IMG/VR virus record: IMGVR_UViG_3300045988_112808
From: a virus
Strand: one strand, 5' to 3'
Length of the DNA: 64,000 nt
Position numbers and translations under genes: made by a program. Within the stretch, counting starts at the first letter, position 1. Every line of letters starts with the position of its first letter. Below the pieces are notes generated by a model. The model had not been told where the DNA came from, ran no database searches, and saw nothing but the letters and a program-made list of their open reading frames with translations. Positions 45,470 through 50,059 of the stretch are shown here, piece after piece.

Positions 45470-45811
45470 TTATAAGTGATTTTGTTTTATATCAGGTAAG
45501 TAATTTGTAATAACATCAAGTGATATCCATAACTCTGGCTCTATGCTGTTTTTTATTCTATCACTAAAAAGCGAATTATCATCACAATCACAATGAGAGA
45601 TTGTGATATAACAATCTTGATAATCCCACCAATGAGCCGATTTAAAATCGTCCCCTCCATTCCAGAATCCTATTCTTATACCTCTTGGGTTGAAATCTTC
45701 ATCTATCCAACTTGGATGATAAGCCAACACTTCTTCTCCCTCTGGAGGTTTTTCCTCTTTGTATTTCTTCCAGTTCATATCACTTTTAATTAGTTGGACA
45801 CAAATGTACAA
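45470..45811 (-). CDS. hypothetical protein (DUF551-like N-terminus?)
   Basis: MNWKKYKEEKPPEGEEVLAY resembles phage DUF551 start. Confidence 0.45.
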   Translation of the reverse strand: MYICVQLIKSDMNWKKYKEEKPPEGEEVLAYHPSWIDEDFNPRGIRIGFWNGGDDFKSAHWWDYQDCYITISHCDCDDNSLFSDRIKNSIEPELWISLDVITNYLPDIKQNHL

Positions 45812-46590
45812 ATTTTATTAAGATACCCTTCTGTCATCTCTATGAAATTCACACAATCTAATTTGCTTAACTTGTAAATCAATGCCGGATTGTGTACTAT
45901 GGCTATAATTTGTGTTTGTGGTTTATGGAATGACAATACATTATAAATTTGCATTATGTTGTCAATGTCAAGATTCCTGTCTGGCTCATCCATGAGAACC
46001 GTGTATTCAAAACTGCTTTCTGTTAATGTTATGCGGTTTCTTTCATAATACTTCAACAGGTTATCAATTCTTTTAATCCAAAACGCATTTGATTTTTTCT
46101 TGTATTCTACAAGATCTTGTATTGGAAATGTATAATCCTTTTGACCGAACATTAAATTGAAAAGTGATTCCAATGACAACACCACTTTCTCTCCATAAGA
46201 TCTTCGAATATTATTCACATACAAATCTAAGTTGCTGATGTTTTTCAATACGCTATCTCGATTCATCTCCGCCGATGGCAATAAACGGAATACTTTCCCT
46301 GCATAATCGGATGATATGTCAATCCCATCAAGAACCTTGTCATCATCATCATCAAATATAGGTGGAAAATCCAGTGCCTCGATCGGTATTTCAGAACACA
46401 TGGATTTCTCACATAACGCATACATTGATATGATGTTAAGCAAGGTTGATTTTCCACTACCGTTTTTACCTATAATTACATTCACTCCTGGCTTGAAAAT
46501 AAATTCTCTGCCATTTTCAAATGCTTCTATATTAGAAACGTATTCAAATGGAGTTTTTGTATTGTCTTTTATTTTTACCGATGTTATCAT
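45790..46590 (-). CDS. ABC/AAA_21-like ATPase
   Basis: Walker A GKNGSGKSTLL; Walker B VLMDEPDRNLD; H-loop-like IVHNP. Confidence 0.7.
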   Translation of the reverse strand: MITSVKIKDNTKTPFEYVSNIEAFENGREFIFKPGVNVIIGKNGSGKSTLLNIISMYALCEKSMCSEIPIEALDFPPIFDDDDDKVLDGIDISSDYAGKVFRLLPSAEMNRDSVLKNISNLDLYVNNIRRSYGEKVVLSLESLFNLMFGQKDYTFPIQDLVEYKKKSNAFWIKRIDNLLKYYERNRITLTESSFEYTVLMDEPDRNLDIDNIMQIYNVLSFHKPQTQIIAIVHNPALIYKLSKLDCVNFIEMTEGYLNKICTFVSN

Positions 46591-46602
46591 ATGTAATCCT
46601 TT

Positions 46603-47442
46603 TTAAAAATCAATTACCGCCCGAACCCTGTAACTATTGTACTCAATGTTGCTGTGCGTGCCGCCAATGGAGAAGCTCACGAACCATGCGCTGACCTTGC
46701 TGTACTCGGTACTGGACCAATACCGCGCCGAGGAGAGGGGAGATGCCGAAACATAAGCGAATGCTTTGTTTAGTTCGTCCATATGATGGGCCATTAAATT
46801 TAATTGACCAAGAGATGGTATATACTCGTCATCTTCCAGCAGATTTCTCAATTTTGGATTTCTGGCTACAAGGCGTTCCGTATTGCCGCGTCCGTCAATA
46901 TCAAACAGCGCATCACATTCACGTTCGTAATATGTCTCACTTCCGGATTCTTTACGGCTATCATTGTCAAGCAACCGTACACTATCATGCTCCTCCAGCG
47001 AGATAGCAAACGATACGTCTTTGTGTTTTAATCCGATATAACGCACATTCTCTTTAATATTCTCTCCAGTAAACGGCTCAGCGTGTCCGTTTCCGTAGAT
47101 TAGATACAAACCATCTTTTCTTGATGGTACTCTATTTTCACATACACATCTTTCATTTTTGGGACTTACAATTATGTTCAACTCATTCAACACATGATCT
47201 TTTATAACCTCCTTACATATTTTACCTACAAAACCATAGCCTTCTTTTTGTTTAAGTTCGTCATTCACCATACATCTAATCCAATGCTCTATCTGATTGT
47301 TTCCTCCGTATGTATTAAGCATACACTGTTTTACGAGTTTTTCCAATAATGGCTCTATGTTTTTGATTATATCTTCTTTGGTAAGGTGAAGTTCATTTAA
47401 TATGCAGATCCTTACCGCCTTGTATTCTTTACTTGCGCTCAT
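46603..47442 (-). CDS. hypothetical protein (279 aa) upstream partner of ATPase; GC-rich 3' end
   Basis: ORF track. Confidence 0.65.
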   Translation of the reverse strand: MSASKEYKAVRICILNELHLTKEDIIKNIEPLLEKLVKQCMLNTYGGNNQIEHWIRCMVNDELKQKEGYGFVGKICKEVIKDHVLNELNIIVSPKNERCVCENRVPSRKDGLYLIYGNGHAEPFTGENIKENVRYIGLKHKDVSFAISLEEHDSVRLLDNDSRKESGSETYYERECDALFDIDGRGNTERLVARNPKLRNLLEDDEYIPSLGQLNLMAHHMDELNKAFAYVSASPLSSARYWSSTEYSKVSAWFVSFSIGGTHSNIEYNSYRVRAVIDF

Positions 47443-47449
47443 AATATAT

Positions 47450-47602
47450 CTACTTAATACTGTGAATTATATTTTTTTTCTCTCTCCCACTATCTTCCCC
47501 TATAGGATTATTCCATCCGTATTTTACAGCCGTAGCTTTAAATAGAGGAAGTCTATAAAATCTATAATCATTCTCAAGATGAGTATATACTGTTGATTTC
47601 AT
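47450..47602 (-). CDS. small hypothetical protein (50 aa), ATGA overlap with methyltransferase stop
   Basis: ATG ORF below cutoff. Confidence 0.4.
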   Translation of the reverse strand: MKSTVYTHLENDYRFYRLPLFKATAVKYGWNNPIGEDSGREKKNIIHSIK

Positions 47603-48261
47603 TTCAGTTCTTTAATTAAAGCATCCGCATATATTACAGCTAATTCAGCCGCCTTATCACACGCTTCCAATATTAATTCACCGTGAGGTCCACGTCCCGA
47701 TACGGATGTGATCGGAAGTATGGTTTTTGCTATCTCGTATCTACGTTGTTCCCAATCTACATGGGTGTTACACGGTTCTTGATTGACCTGTATATATCTT
47801 CCTTCAATATTAGAAGATCTTAATGTTTCCGCATTCTCTTCGCCGAATGCAACCAGAATAGACCCACATCCTGGACTTTCACCTATTGTTCCATCTTCTC
47901 TGTGGAATTTTATCCTTCCTTTCATGAACAATATACCTTTTGCTTTCGGGAATACAACATTCTGAAACATCTTATTGTCAAGACGATTAAAAAGAAGAGC
48001 TATTCCATTATTGTGCTCTACCATACGAGTAATAAAATGCTCTATAGTCGGTCTTGAATAAGGTGGGTTTAACCATACCCTTCCTTCCCATTTTTGTTTT
48101 AATCCATCTTGCTCTTTGTTATACATAACCCTGGCTGTCCTCCATAACGGACGCATAGGCGCACATGGATCTAAATCAAATTCCCCTAAAGCGTCTATAA
48201 TTTCTTTAGGTGTGTACCATTCATCTGTACTGTTTTTAGATTTCTCAAATGATGTATTCAT
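47599..48261 (-). CDS. dam: phage Dam-type DNA N6-adenine methyltransferase
   Basis: DEWYTPKEIIDALGEFDLDPCA and WLNPPYS motifs. Confidence 0.8.
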   Translation of the reverse strand: MNTSFEKSKNSTDEWYTPKEIIDALGEFDLDPCAPMRPLWRTARVMYNKEQDGLKQKWEGRVWLNPPYSRPTIEHFITRMVEHNNGIALLFNRLDNKMFQNVVFPKAKGILFMKGRIKFHREDGTIGESPGCGSILVAFGEENAETLRSSNIEGRYIQVNQEPCNTHVDWEQRRYEIAKTILPITSVSGRGPHGELILEACDKAAELAVIYADALIKELK

Positions 48262-48279
48262 ATATCTATGTTTTATAAG

Positions 48280-48942
48280 TTAATCCCATCCTCCAGTAGT
48301 GTACAAAGATACATCTTCCTCCTCTACGTTTACCCCTTTAATAGCCTGTAGAAGTTTTTTCTTTGTCTCCCGGCACATATTGTAACCATATCCTTTATAC
48401 CGATATGAGCGCTCCCATGTGCTTACTGGAAAAGGAATATTTTCGTCAATGACCAGCCTCTTCATATGAAGATGTTCGAAGAATTTCTCATGATAGAGTA
48501 GTTTGTACTCGTATGCTACTATGCTTGCGGATGAGAATGGAAAATAATCATCTTCTTTTTCTTCGTATTTGGGCTCCTTATAGTAAGCCATTTTTGTCAC
48601 AGTAAAATCGAAGCTTCTAAGAATCTCTTTCGGCTTTCCAAACTCTGACTCTATGAACTCTATCCATACCTTTTCTCCCTCTTTCTGGAACGCACATACC
48701 TTCTCATTTCTGTACTTAAATTTCCATCCTTCTTTCTGATGTTTTTCATCATTGAACGAATCAATAGCCTCCTGAAAATCGCTTTCACTTTCAAAGAAAA
48801 TATCAATGTCTTTTACTCTTTCTCCGGAAAGGATATTTTTAAAACATCCACCAGCTATGAATCCTTTGTGGCCTTCCATATACTTGTCAAGCCATCTTAT
48901 TTGCCAGAAATTATCTGGAGTATCTATTACAAAATTATTCAT
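48280..48942 (-). CDS. Pol-beta superfamily nucleotidyltransferase (CCA-adding/polyA-polymerase-like head)
   Basis: GFIAGGCFKNILSGERVKDIDIFF = GG...R..L.G...DID motif. Confidence 0.55.
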   Translation of the reverse strand: MNNFVIDTPDNFWQIRWLDKYMEGHKGFIAGGCFKNILSGERVKDIDIFFESESDFQEAIDSFNDEKHQKEGWKFKYRNEKVCAFQKEGEKVWIEFIESEFGKPKEILRSFDFTVTKMAYYKEPKYEEKEDDYFPFSSASIVAYEYKLLYHEKFFEHLHMKRLVIDENIPFPVSTWERSYRYKGYGYNMCRETKKKLLQAIKGVNVEEEDVSLYTTGGWD

Positions 48943-48960
48943 ATTGTTTATGTTTTGCCG

Positions 48961-49215
48961 TTACCAAGCGAGATAAAAATTCCGCTTCACAATAATACAA
49001 TGAGTGTAATTACTCAGGTCGATTCCGTTGTCCGTAAATGCATCCAGGACCCGTTTTTCCACGTATTTGAGTTTTACTGTTATCCCCTTCTTAAACACTT
49101 CTATTAACTTCTCATTGCACTCAATAGGTCCAATAAGACAGTATCTATTCGAAGGACTGTCTGATATACAATATGTCTGACATCCTAACATGTTGCTTAA
49201 AATTACTTCGTTCAT
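48961..49215 (-). CDS. hypothetical protein
   Basis: ORF track. Confidence 0.55.
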   Translation of the reverse strand: MNEVILSNMLGCQTYCISDSPSNRYCLIGPIECNEKLIEVFKKGITVKLKYVEKRVLDAFTDNGIDLSNYTHCIIVKRNFYLAW

Positions 49216-49222
49216 AATTTCT

Positions 49223-49699
49223 CTATGATTCTAATATGGTGTCTACAAACTCCGTTATTTTATCAACGGATTCTTTTGATAAGGTATATCTTCTCCAATC
49301 CCATCTAAAATGCGCTTTTGGGAGATTTTTAGTAGAATATTTTTCATTTCCGTCCTTGTTAGTCCATTCGTAATTATCCTCTGGATCCGCCACTTTTATC
49401 CCCGATTTAGGTCCGTTACGAAAGCTATATAGCATTCTTATAACCGATTCAAAATCCGAACCTATATCAAATAGCATATGATACGCCTTGTTTATTAAAG
49501 CCCTATCAGCTTGTTCCAAGTCTTCACCAAACAACTCTCTTACACTCCAATTTTTCATTTCTGAATAACGAATGAAATTAAGTTTCCCTTTTTCTATATT
49601 AGGATTTTTTCTTGATAATACAAGCTCCAAATCTTTCACAAATGATTCTTTTAGCTTCTGTTGTCCTAACAAGGCGGTGTATTTACTTACTATATCCAT
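49223..49699 (-). CDS. hypothetical protein
   Basis: ORF track. Confidence 0.6.
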   Translation of the reverse strand: MDIVSKYTALLGQQKLKESFVKDLELVLSRKNPNIEKGKLNFIRYSEMKNWSVRELFGEDLEQADRALINKAYHMLFDIGSDFESVIRMLYSFRNGPKSGIKVADPEDNYEWTNKDGNEKYSTKNLPKAHFRWDWRRYTLSKESVDKITEFVDTILES

Positions 49700-49965
49700 T
49701 ATCCAAAGTTTTTTAATATTACTCCAAACGAATCATATTTAACCCCTAATATATCATGTGCCTTTTGGGATCCACATTCACATTTTCCTACCTTCTGTCC
49801 TGATCCACACCCGCATAAGCCTATTCCCCAATGGTTGATACAGTGGTCGCAGCAGTAGGACTGGTGAAGCCATGTGGCATCACCAGTATCCAAATCCAAT
49901 TTTTTCAAATGTTTCCCAAAACATGCTATTCGAAGCACTATTATCAAATCTGATAGTGACTGCAC
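49699..49965 (-). CDS. Cys-rich metal-binding small protein
   Basis: CCDHC...CGCGSGQKVGKCECG. Confidence 0.55.
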   Translation of the reverse strand: MQSLSDLIIVLRIACFGKHLKKLDLDTGDATWLHQSYCCDHCINHWGIGLCGCGSGQKVGKCECGSQKAHDILGVKYDSFGVILKNFG

Positions 49966-50059
49966 CGCATTTACATTTTTGTATGTATTCTATTTTCATA
50001 TATGTTCCATTTTCAAAATATCTGGGGACAGATATTCTTGCAACTCCAATTTGCGTACA

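What the first reader, a model, noticed from the sequence alone, without database searches (positions are those of the whole stretch)
47450..48942. Dam-type methyltransferase adjacent to a CCA-adding-enzyme-like nucleotidyltransferase
The N6-adenine methyltransferase (likely anti-restriction) is followed by a 50-aa micro-ORF. Upstream is a 220-aa Pol-beta-fold nucleotidyltransferase whose GG..R..L.G...DIDI motif matches the tRNA nucleotidyltransferase/polyA polymerase head. It lacks the usual body and tail domains. A minimal nucleotidyltransferase in a phage could repair host- or defence-damaged tRNA 3' ends, synthesise a nucleotide signal, or act against cyclic-nucleotide defence.
Basis: partly seen in the sequence, partly recalled or inferred. 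Interest (0 to 1): 0.55.

Follow-up and report, generated by a model that had tools for sequence, protein, structure and literature searches.

The report
Short Gad2-family phage nucleotidyltransferase beside Dam
The "CCA-adding-like" enzyme is a short, stand-alone member of the known phage Gad2 family, whose full-length members switch off the bacterial Gabija defence. The Dam methylase next to it is a recently inserted cassette, and the 50-codon micro-ORF is the leftover tail of the gene that cassette overwrote.

Summary
All three ORFs exist as described, on the minus strand: NTase 48280-48942, Dam 47599-48261, micro-ORF 47450-47602.

- It is homologous to the N-terminal half of the experimentally validated 394-aa Gad2.
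- It is 48% identical to 214-aa proteins already listed as Gad2 homologues in the discovery paper.
- It lacks Gad2's C-terminal ~200 residues, and the CCA enzymes' EDxxR motif and body/tail domains.
- No tRNA genes are present. tRNA CCA repair is therefore not supported; a Gad2-like enzymatic counter-defence role is the best inference.
- The Gad2 mechanism itself is still unknown.

**Dam.** It is a real PF05869 N6-adenine methyltransferase. It is a cassette: the closest phage, csAssE-Sib, has a 145-aa gene at that position instead.

**Micro-ORF.** It is the 3' remnant of that 145-aa gene. A variable poly-A tract gives three different C-termini among relatives.

**Verdict.** This is an ordinary accessory anti-defence patch of a Bacteroidales gut phage, and a new member of a known kind. 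Interest is low to moderate.

The parts
48280..48942 (-). 220-aa stand-alone Gad2-family nucleotidyltransferase, with a class II CCA/PAP-like head plus neck. Putative catalytic D45 and D47, with E95 as the likely third acidic residue. Motif-B-like F111-D112-F113. Invariant R178 and Y182.
   Evidence: - ORF.
- PHROG 4400, E 6e-66.
- PF26128 'Gad2' precomputed on identical or near-identical proteins.
- BLASTP to validated Gad2, E 2e-12. hhalign 96.7%.
- AF2 model, pLDDT 82.8.
- Residues invariant across short and long forms.
47599..48261 (-). 220-aa Dam-type N6-adenine DNA methyltransferase. The PF05869 core is residues ~8-150, with NPPY at 65-68. A C-terminal ~57 aa has separate ancestry (PHROG 28300).
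   Evidence: - Pfam Dam 55.2 bits (cut-off 28.1).
- PHROG 111, E 1.6e-41, and PHROG 28300 for residues 164-220.
- TIGR01712 40.5 bits, below its equivalog cut-off of 97.
- PADLOC orphan MTase.
- 67-69% identity over residues 1-160 to Dam genes of Bacteroides and Phocaeicola phages.
47450..47602 (-). 50-aa micro-ORF. Codons ~10-44 are the in-frame 3' remnant of a 145-aa gene (PHROG 5706) that is intact in csAssE-Sib. The first ~9 codons come from the Dam cassette.
   Evidence: - PHROG 5706 positions 107-142 of 149.
- Intact 145-aa homologue.
- DNA alignment.
- Variants of 44-50 aa in relatives.
47577..48266 (.). Approximate extent of the replacement segment (Dam cassette) relative to phage csAssE-Sib. 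About 0.7 kb here replaces about 0.33 kb of the 145-aa gene. High identity resumes on both sides.
   Evidence: Alignment. k-mer diagonals: offset 390 upstream of 48279 against offset 24 below 47548.
47472..47479 (-). A8 homopolymer inside the micro-ORF. It is A7, A9 or A10 in relatives, giving three different C-termini. The A9 form keeps the ancestral ...KYNSQY frame; the window's A8 is frameshifted.
48961..49215 (-). 84-aa upstream ORF in the same frame as the NTase, separated from it by a TAA. In several relatives that codon is CAA and a 311-aa fusion is called. It is not a conserved partner in more distant homologues.
   Evidence: N-terminal extensions of distant homologues are unrelated.

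Best explanation
This is a tightly packed stretch of early or accessory genes of a ~150-kb human-gut phage. The phage is about 92% identical in DNA to csAssE-Sib, and its host is most likely Bacteroides or Phocaeicola.

**NTase.** The 220-aa protein is the catalytic nucleotidyltransferase module of the Gad2 family, encoded on its own. Structurally it is the head plus neck of a class II CCA-adding/poly(A)-polymerase-type enzyme. All residues conserved between short and full-length Gad2 proteins are intact, so it is predicted to be an active, template-independent nucleotidyl transferase.

**Most likely role (inferred, not shown).** It neutralises a host defence enzymatically, as Gad2 does for Gabija. 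It would do this by transferring a nucleotide onto a nucleic-acid 3' end or another cellular target, rather than by stoichiometric binding. It is not a tRNA CCA-repair enzyme.

**Dam.** It is a separately acquired anti-restriction or self-marking cassette, co-transcribed with the NTase. Its insertion destroyed the 5' two-thirds of a 145-aa gene.

**Micro-ORF.** It is the leftover 3' end of that gene and is probably not functional.
For: **Identity of the NTase (shown)**
- PHROG 4400, E 6e-66.
- Identical or near-identical proteins carry PF26128 'Gad2'.
- BLASTP E 2e-12, 25% identity to residues 26-177 of the experimentally validated B. laterosporus Gad2. hhalign 96.7%.
- That Gad2 reciprocally hits PHROG 4400 at 5e-29.
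- 48% identity (E 5e-64) to the S. suis 214-aa protein listed as a Gad2 homologue in Supplementary Table 10 of bioRxiv 10.1101/2023.05.01.538930. Nine such short-form entries are in those tables.

**Fold (shown)**

**Catalytic competence (inferred)**
- G31, G32, D45, D47, F111, D112, F113, R178 and Y182 are invariant across short and long forms.

**Function of the family**
- A gad2 knockout sensitises SPbetaL7 to Gabija, and the B. laterosporus homologue abolishes Gabija defence.
- Gabija occurs in B. fragilis NCTC 9343 (PMC13139388).

**Accessory-gene behaviour**
- The gene sits among small early genes with no conserved partner in Streptococcus, Listeria, Bacillus, Thomasclavelia and Bacteroides phages.
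- Many truncated or chimeric variants occur in metagenomes.

**Dam cassette and remnant (shown)**
-.
- The NTase-Dam gap is only 18 nt, and sigma-70-type promoter and terminator matches across 46500-50000 are no more than chance.
Against: - Only 394-400-aa Gad2 proteins have been tested. The window protein lacks their C-terminal ~200 residues. No homologue of that domain is found in the window or next to short forms in other phages. Anti-Gabija activity of the short form is therefore an extrapolation.
- How Gad2 works is unknown (PMC12904381), so the 'nucleotide transfer onto a target' step is inference from fold alone.
- The presumed third acidic residue, E95, is Gln in validated long-form Gad2, so the active sites may differ.
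- In S. thermophilus phages the gene lies between Erf and SSB/RusA. In a Bacteroides phage it lies among dCMP-hydroxymethylase and dUTPase genes. Both are compatible with a DNA-metabolism role.
- The host, and whether it carries Gabija, are not established.
Confidence: 0.6

Rival explanations
1. Minimal tRNA nucleotidyltransferase. It would rebuild or extend damaged tRNA 3' CCA ends after host or defence tRNase attack.
For: - The closest solved folds are CCA-, CC- and A-adding enzymes.
- Motif A and the motif-B Asp are conserved.
- OLD-family nucleases related to Gabija's GajA (P2 OLD, PARIS) are now known to cut tRNA (bioRxiv 10.64898/2026.07.10.737580).
- Some database records already label homologues as CCA tRNA nucleotidyltransferase or polyA polymerase.
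Against: - There are no body/tail tRNA-binding domains in a 220-aa protein.
- The EDxxR templating motif is not recovered in the only alignment available, which is weak.
- Pfam PolyA_pol scores below its threshold (14.6 against 23 bits).
- The window holds no tRNA genes and no RNA families.
- The known OLD-type tRNases cut the anticodon arm, not the 3' end.
Confidence: 0.1
2. A DNA-end or replication/recombination accessory enzyme. It would act as a terminal transferase on phage DNA 3' ends. This could also be how Gad2 blinds the DNA-end-sensing Gabija system.
For: - Its neighbours in S. thermophilus phages are Erf, SSB and RusA.
- In Bacteroides phage BF503P4 its neighbours are dCMP hydroxymethylase-like and dUTPase genes.
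- Gabija is described as DNA-end sensing (table in PMC12904381).
Against: - Motif B keeps the Asp that reads the ribose 2'-OH in class II enzymes (established knowledge of the CCA-enzyme family; conservation). That favours NTPs over dNTPs.
- No DNA-binding domain is detectable.
- The genomic context is not conserved across phages.
Confidence: 0.15
3. A nucleotide second-messenger synthase or decoy-signal maker (cGAS/CD-NTase-like or mCpol-like) that interferes with cyclic-nucleotide immunity.
Against: - There are no PADLOC hits.
- The one function tested in this family is inhibition of Gabija, and none of the descriptions of Gabija read here involves a cyclic-nucleotide signal.
Confidence: 0.04
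4. A host-takeover toxin of the MenT/AbiEii type. It would block translation by adding nucleotides to tRNA acceptor ends.
For: SPbetaL7 Gad2 is toxic when expressed alone. MenT-type minimal NTases are of similar size.
Against: - No antitoxin-like partner is conserved nearby.
- The B. laterosporus homologue is not toxic.
Confidence: 0.05

Closest known systems
Gad2 (Gabija anti-defence 2; Pfam PF26128). Validated in Bacillus phage SPbetaL7 and a Brevibacillus laterosporus prophage.
   Same: - The N-terminal nucleotidyltransferase domain is homologous: 25% identity, E 2e-12. The AGG...DxD, FDFT and R..Y motifs are shared.
- It is phage-borne and lies in an accessory or early region.
- Short ~214-aa relatives, 48% identical to this protein, are already listed as Gad2 homologues by the discoverers.
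   Different: - It is 220 aa, not 394-400 aa. The whole C-terminal half is missing and is not encoded nearby.
- E95 is Gln in the validated proteins.
- The short form has no experimental test.
- The host phylum differs (Bacteroidota rather than Bacillota).
Class II tRNA nucleotidyltransferases and bacterial poly(A) polymerase (PF01743 head; e.g. PDB 3H37, 4WBY, 3AQL, 1MIV).
   Same: - Motif A, GG-x9-13-DxD, is present.
- The motif B aspartate is present.
   Different: - There are no body or tail domains.
- The EDxxR nucleotide-templating motif is not recognisable.
- The sequence scores below the Pfam threshold.
- There is no evidence for tRNA as a substrate.
NP_344798.1 of S. pneumoniae (PDB 2LA3), a 191-aa stand-alone 'CCA-adding enzyme head domain' protein of unknown function.
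   Different: The similarity is much weaker than to full CCA enzymes. No sequence link was detected here. Its function is also unknown.
Phage Dam methyltransferases of family PF05869 / TIGR01712 (phage N6-adenine methyltransferase).
   Same: It has the Dam core with the NPPY motif, is phage-borne, and is an orphan with no restriction partner.
   Different: - It scores below the TIGR01712 equivalog cut-off.
- It has an added ~57-aa C-terminal segment of separate origin.
- Its target sequence is unknown.

Membership tests
Gad2 (PF26128) | Sequence homology to the nucleotidyltransferase domain of experimentally validated Gad2 | tested here: met
   - BLASTP E 2e-12; hhalign 96.7%.
- Reciprocal PHROG hits.
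- PF26128 precomputed on identical proteins.
- The local Pfam copy lacks this model: true Gad2 gets no hit either.
Gad2 (PF26128) | Conserved putative active-site residues (GG...DxD, FDF, Arg/Tyr of the neck) | tested here: met
   G31, G32, D45, D47, F111, D112, F113, R178 and Y182 are invariant in a 26-sequence alignment of short and long forms.
Gad2 (PF26128) | C-terminal ~200-residue domain present in the validated 394-400-aa proteins | tested here: not met
   The protein ends at residue 220. tblastn with the Gad2 C-terminal half finds nothing in the window or in ten loci carrying short forms.
Gad2 (PF26128) | Inhibits Gabija defence in vivo | not testable with these tools
   Only the SPbetaL7 knockout and the B. 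laterosporus homologue have been tested.
Class II CCA-adding enzyme / poly(A) polymerase (PF01743) | Head-domain fold with motif A | tested here: met
   [not shown]
Class II CCA-adding enzyme / poly(A) polymerase (PF01743) | Score above the Pfam gathering threshold | tested here: not met
   14.6 bits against a cut-off of 23, E 0.044.
Class II CCA-adding enzyme / poly(A) polymerase (PF01743) | Motif D (EDxxR) that templates CTP/ATP | tested here: inconclusive
   hhalign to E. coli Cca places 'FPVST' opposite 'EDPLR', so no Glu, Asp or Arg falls at the templating positions. The alignment probability is very low.
Class II CCA-adding enzyme / poly(A) polymerase (PF01743) | Body and tail domains that hold the tRNA | tested here: not met
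   The protein is 220 aa against 340-520-aa targets. About 175 residues align, ~80% of the protein, so there is no room for body/tail domains; calling the aligned part head+neck is my inference.
Phage Dam (PF05869) | Pfam gathering threshold and the NPPY catalytic motif | tested here: met
   55.2 bits against 28.1. N65-P66-P67-Y68 is visible in the translation.
Phage Dam (TIGR01712 equivalog) | Equivalog cut-off (same function and specificity as the curated set) | tested here: not met
   40.5 bits against 97.05.
Phage Dam (PF05869) | Methylates adenine in a defined target such as GATC | not testable with these tools
   GATC is frequent in the window, 246 sites at observed/expected 0.78. That neither proves nor excludes GATC as the target.
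CD-NTase / cGAS-like signal synthases | Closest structural neighbours are CD-NTases | tested here: not met
   [not shown]
MenT / AbiEii toxin NTases | Closest structural neighbours are MenT-type NTases, with an adjacent antitoxin | tested here: not met
   [not shown]

The most novel reading that the evidence does not exclude
The 220-aa form may be the self-sufficient catalytic core of Gad2. It would be a widespread anti-defence enzyme (about 1000 clusters at 50% identity across phages of several phyla). By adding nucleotides to a nucleic-acid 3' end (DNA termini or tRNA), it would disarm OLD-family ABC-ATPase/TOPRIM systems such as Gabija, and perhaps PARIS or OLD. Counter-defence by 'end-tailing' with a stripped-down CCA-enzyme fold would be a new mechanism.
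Probability: 0.12. Interest if true: 0.7.

Novelty: new member of a known kind. Interest (0 to 1): 0.3.

Why it matters
The finding relabels a gene that databases call "polyA polymerase", "CCA tRNA nucleotidyltransferase" or "hypothetical" as a Gad2-family counter-defence candidate in an abundant human-gut phage lineage.

It also shows that the commonest natural form of this family is the ~200-220-aa catalytic module alone. How Gad2 works is still unsolved. A 220-aa protein with a confident model is the simplest reagent for finding its substrate, and so for learning what Gabija-type systems need in order to fire.

The Dam and micro-ORF part is a clean small example of cassette replacement in a phage accessory region. 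It is a caution against reading leftover ORFs as micro-genes.

Tried and rejected
- **PDB sequence searches.** A close-homologue profile found only a spurious glucanase. A broader profile gave only motif-A-level hits to CCA enzymes, E 0.05-0.4.
- **Local Pfam.** It does not contain PF26128, so its silence is not informative; the control with true Gad2 is.
- **AFDB50 fold search.** It was unavailable.
- **A separately encoded Gad2 C-terminal domain.** I looked in the window and beside short forms and found none.
- **The 84-aa upstream ORF as a conserved partner.** It is fused to the NTase in some relatives. I rejected it because the N-terminal extensions of more distant homologues are unrelated to it and to each other. 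The fusion rests on a single TAA/CAA difference.
- **Stop-codon recoding as the cause of the 311-aa calls.** I rejected it: the relatives have a real CAA, and large ORFs in the window are intact under the standard code.
- **tRNA and RNA features.** No tRNA or tmRNA and no Rfam family were found.
- **Promoter and terminator scan.** It gave nothing above chance.
- **Literature.** The published Nature version of the Gad2 paper could not be retrieved, so only the preprint was used. No paper on Gad2's mechanism was found. A 2026 review states that it is unknown.
Full report
**Observation**

From about 22 kb to 64 kb of the window, GC skew and the ORFs of 100 aa or more lie almost entirely on the minus strand. 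The finding covers three consecutive minus-strand ORFs:
- a 220-aa protein at 48280-48942;
- a 220-aa protein at 47599-48261, starting 18 nt after the first one ends;
- a 50-aa ORF at 47450-47602, whose ATG overlaps the stop of the second (ATGA).

A sigma-70-type promoter and terminator scan of 46500-50000 gives nothing beyond chance. That scan does not cover Bacteroides-type promoters. With gaps this small, the three ORFs most likely lie in one transcription unit.

**The methyltransferase**

The middle ORF is a bona fide member of Pfam PF05869 (Dam), at 55.2 bits against a cut-off of 28.1.
- It matches PHROG 111 and PADLOC orphan-methyltransferase models.
- It carries NPPY at residues 65-68.
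- It falls below the TIGR01712 equivalog cut-off, 40.5 against 97 bits, so its specificity cannot be transferred.
- Residues 1-160 are 67-69% identical to Dam genes of Bacteroides and Phocaeicola phages. This, together with a 56%-identical NTase homologue in B. fragilis phages, points to a Bacteroidales host.
- The last ~57 residues match a different PHROG, 28300.

**Dam is a cassette and the micro-ORF is a remnant**

The closest sequenced phage is csAssE-Sib (OR575929; human gut, 151 kb), about 92% identical in DNA over this region.
- Its annotation shows the same gene order, but a 145-aa hypothetical gene follows the NTase where the window has Dam.
- The DNA alignment shows near-identity up to about 13 nt past the NTase stop, then unrelated sequence, then near-identity again from inside the micro-ORF onward.
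- Residues ~10-44 of the micro-ORF (ENDYRFYRLPLFKATAVKYGWNNPIGEDSGRE) are the in-frame C-terminus of that 145-aa protein (...EDDYAFYGLPLFKATAVKYGWDNPIGEDSGRE...). This is why the micro-ORF hits only positions 107-142 of PHROG 5706.
- In six metagenomic relatives carrying the identical Dam, the remnant is 44-49 aa. A homopolymer (A8 at 47472-47479 here) is A7, A9 or A10 there, giving three different C-termini. Only the A9 form keeps the ancestral ...KYNSQY ending.

So the NTase-Dam adjacency is a recent mosaic event, not a conserved functional pair. The micro-ORF is best read as debris.

**The nucleotidyltransferase: fold**

An AlphaFold2 model built on 29 homologues has mean pLDDT 82.8. It is above 90 over most of residues 11-110 and lower (about 60-88) in the insertion and neck, residues 130-210.
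- Foldseek against the PDB returns only class II tRNA nucleotidyltransferases and bacterial poly(A) polymerase at the top (E 3e-5 to 1e-3, probability 1.0).
- Other Pol-beta families score far lower: TENT5 8.1, TUTases ~5, cGLR/DncV 5.1, MenT 4.6.
- At sequence level only motif A is detectable.

**The nucleotidyltransferase: family**

The protein is not an orphan.
- Its best PHROG is 4400, E 6e-66, function unknown.
- The big-database search returned 893 hits, and the precomputed Pfam domain for them is PF26128. The contig look-ups name that domain 'Gad2'.
- The local Pfam copy lacks that model. Genuine Gad2 proteins also get no hit in it.
- Gad2 (Gabija anti-defence 2) was defined in bioRxiv 10.1101/2023.05.01.538930. 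Deleting it from Bacillus phage SPbetaL7 makes the phage Gabija-sensitive. A non-toxic homologue from a Brevibacillus laterosporus prophage abolishes Gabija defence. AlphaFold predicted a nucleotidyltransferase domain.

I took the validated 394-aa B. laterosporus sequence from that paper's Supplementary Table 10.
- The window protein aligns to its residues 26-177 at 25% identity, E 2e-12. Profile-sequence hhalign probability is 96.7%.
- Reciprocally, validated Gad2 hits PHROG 4400 at 5e-29 in addition to its own PHROGs 18122, 27100 and 16176. The window protein hits those three PHROGs weakly too.
- The same table lists 214-aa Streptococcus suis prophage proteins as Gad2 homologues. The window protein is 48% identical to them, E 5e-64.
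- Nine entries with the short-form signature GFIAGGCFKNI are in the published tables. This phage's own protein is not among them.

**What is conserved and what is missing**

In a 26-sequence alignment of short forms and the N-terminal halves of long forms, the invariant positions are G31, G32, D45, D47, F50, F111, D112, F113, L163, R178 and Y182.
- D45 and D47 are the Pol-beta metal-binding pair.
- F-D-F-T corresponds to motif B (RRDFT) of class II enzymes, from the alignment and from knowledge of that family.
- E95, on the strand where class II enzymes carry their third acidic residue, is invariant among close homologues. It is E or D in most short forms but Gln in the validated long forms.
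- The only alignment to E. coli Cca I could obtain puts FPVST opposite the nucleotide-templating EDPLR. That alignment is weak.
- The C-terminal ~200 residues of Gad2 are absent. tblastn finds no copy elsewhere in the window or beside short-form genes in ten other loci.

An exhaustive search finds 1005 clusters at 50% identity (E<=1e-3). Most of the listed full-length (non-fragment) hits are 190-230 aa long. The stand-alone module is therefore the common form, at least among the closest relatives.

**Context elsewhere**

Homologues occur in 114 phage records, including Streptococcus thermophilus, Listeria, Bacillus, Bacteroides, Maribacter and Aeromonas phages. Their neighbours differ:

| Phage | Neighbours of the NTase homologue |
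|---|---|
| S. thermophilus phages | Erf, SSB, RusA |
| B. fragilis phage BF503P4 | dCMP-hydroxymethylase-like genes, dUTPase |
| Listeria P35, Thomasclavelia TR-TP2, Bacillus Bak10 | small hypothetical genes |

There is no conserved partner and no recurrent methyltransferase. In metagenomes many copies are truncated or fused to neighbours by deletions, as expected for a dispensable accessory gene.

**Mechanism**

*Shown.* Fold, family, intact conserved residues, stand-alone architecture, the cassette nature of Dam and the remnant nature of the micro-ORF.

*Inferred.* The protein is an active, template-independent, probably ribonucleotide-using transferase that serves counter-defence as Gad2 does.
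- A 2026 review lists Gad2 among inhibitors whose mechanism is not yet elucidated. It describes Gabija as sensing DNA ends when RecBCD is excluded (PMC12904381).
- Related OLD-family nucleases cut tRNA anticodon arms.
- Gabija is present in B. fragilis NCTC 9343, and in a single-cell study of that strain infected with a lytic phage, cells expressing it (with the PSB capsule) had almost no chance of infection (PMC13139388).

I therefore commit to enzymatic neutralisation of a Gabija-like system by nucleotide transfer onto a nucleic-acid end or another target. My confidence is about 0.9 for family identity and about 0.4-0.5 for the anti-Gabija role of the short form.

tRNA CCA repair is unlikely, at about 0.1. 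The protein has no tRNA-binding domains and no recognisable EDxxR motif, and the window has no tRNA genes or RNA families. Signal synthesis and toxin roles are less likely still.

**Novelty and verdict**

The family is named in Pfam and its short members are already listed by its discoverers, so this is a new member of a known kind. Three things are mildly new:
- the explicit recognition that gut-phage genes annotated 'polyA polymerase' or 'CCA tRNA nucleotidyltransferase' belong to Gad2;
- the observation that the minimal 220-aa module is the prevalent form;
- the dissection of the Dam replacement.

Interest is 0.3.

Noticed in passing
window 1-64000: CTAG is almost absent: 3 sites against 112 expected from a maximal-order Markov model. 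It is also absent from 15 kb of csAssE-Sib. GAATTC (0 against 15.8 expected) and GTATAC (0 against 12.3) are missing as well. GATC is common: 246 sites, observed/expected 0.78. This looks like restriction-site avoidance. From memory, BfaI of Bacteroides fragilis cuts CTAG.
   Followed up: partly
window 48961-48963 (TAA between the 84-aa ORF and the NTase): The 84-aa ORF and the NTase are in the same frame. In many relatives the TAA is CAA, so a 311-aa fusion protein is called (P0001 and others). csAssE-Sib has two stops there. More distant homologues carry unrelated N-terminal extensions, some with CxxC pairs.
   Followed up: yes
window 45790-46590 (-): This is a 266-aa ABC/SMC-type ATPase (AAA_21, SMC_N, AAA_23) with no nuclease domain, lying two genes downstream of Dam. 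Its P-loop region matches the ATPase subunits of defence systems (mad3, AriA, PtuA, GajA, LmuB). It is conserved next to the NTase region in all relatives examined. A phage-encoded ATPase of the type used by Gabija, PARIS and Septu could be a decoy or interfering subunit, but this was not examined.
   Followed up: no
metagenomic relatives (P0017, P0023, P0087, P0090, P0109 and many 130-210-aa fragments): Numerous natural variants have the NTase truncated or fused in frame to neighbouring genes. For example, NTase residues 1-121 or 1-207 are joined to the DUF3988-like protein. Some truncated forms are common (72-239 member sequences) and lie on contigs longer than 90 kb. This suggests frequent loss or rearrangement of this accessory region, or possibly assembly chimeras.
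   Followed up: partly
window 47599-47770 (Dam residues ~164-220): The C-terminal ~57 aa of the Dam ORF match a separate PHROG (28300). They are not covered by the Dam genes of Bacteroides or Phocaeicola phages, where a second small ORF follows the methylase. The window's Dam therefore looks like a fusion of two ancestral ORFs.
   Followed up: no
L003 (Bacteroides phage BF503P4) 1942-5457: The 56%-identical NTase homologue sits between two genes annotated as deoxycytidylate 5-hydroxymethyltransferase and close to a dUTPase gene. This is a DNA base-modification neighbourhood. Base modification is itself listed as a way to escape Gabija.
   Followed up: no
window 46603-47442 (-): The 279-aa protein after the micro-ORF is annotated DUF3988 in csAssE-Sib. 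It has a weak Lcl C-terminal-domain match (E 6.6e-4, below threshold) and matches the C-terminus of PHROG 4245. Its length varies from 238 to 284 aa among relatives.
   Followed up: no
L009 7049-7972: One close relative (a 151-kb contig) carries an IS1595-family transposase inserted a few genes downstream of the Dam region.
   Followed up: no
window ~22000: GC and AT skew flip sign at about 22 kb. Plus-strand genes lie upstream, including two giant ORFs of 2033 and 2137 aa. Minus-strand small genes lie downstream. This marks a divergent junction between two gene modules.
   Followed up: no
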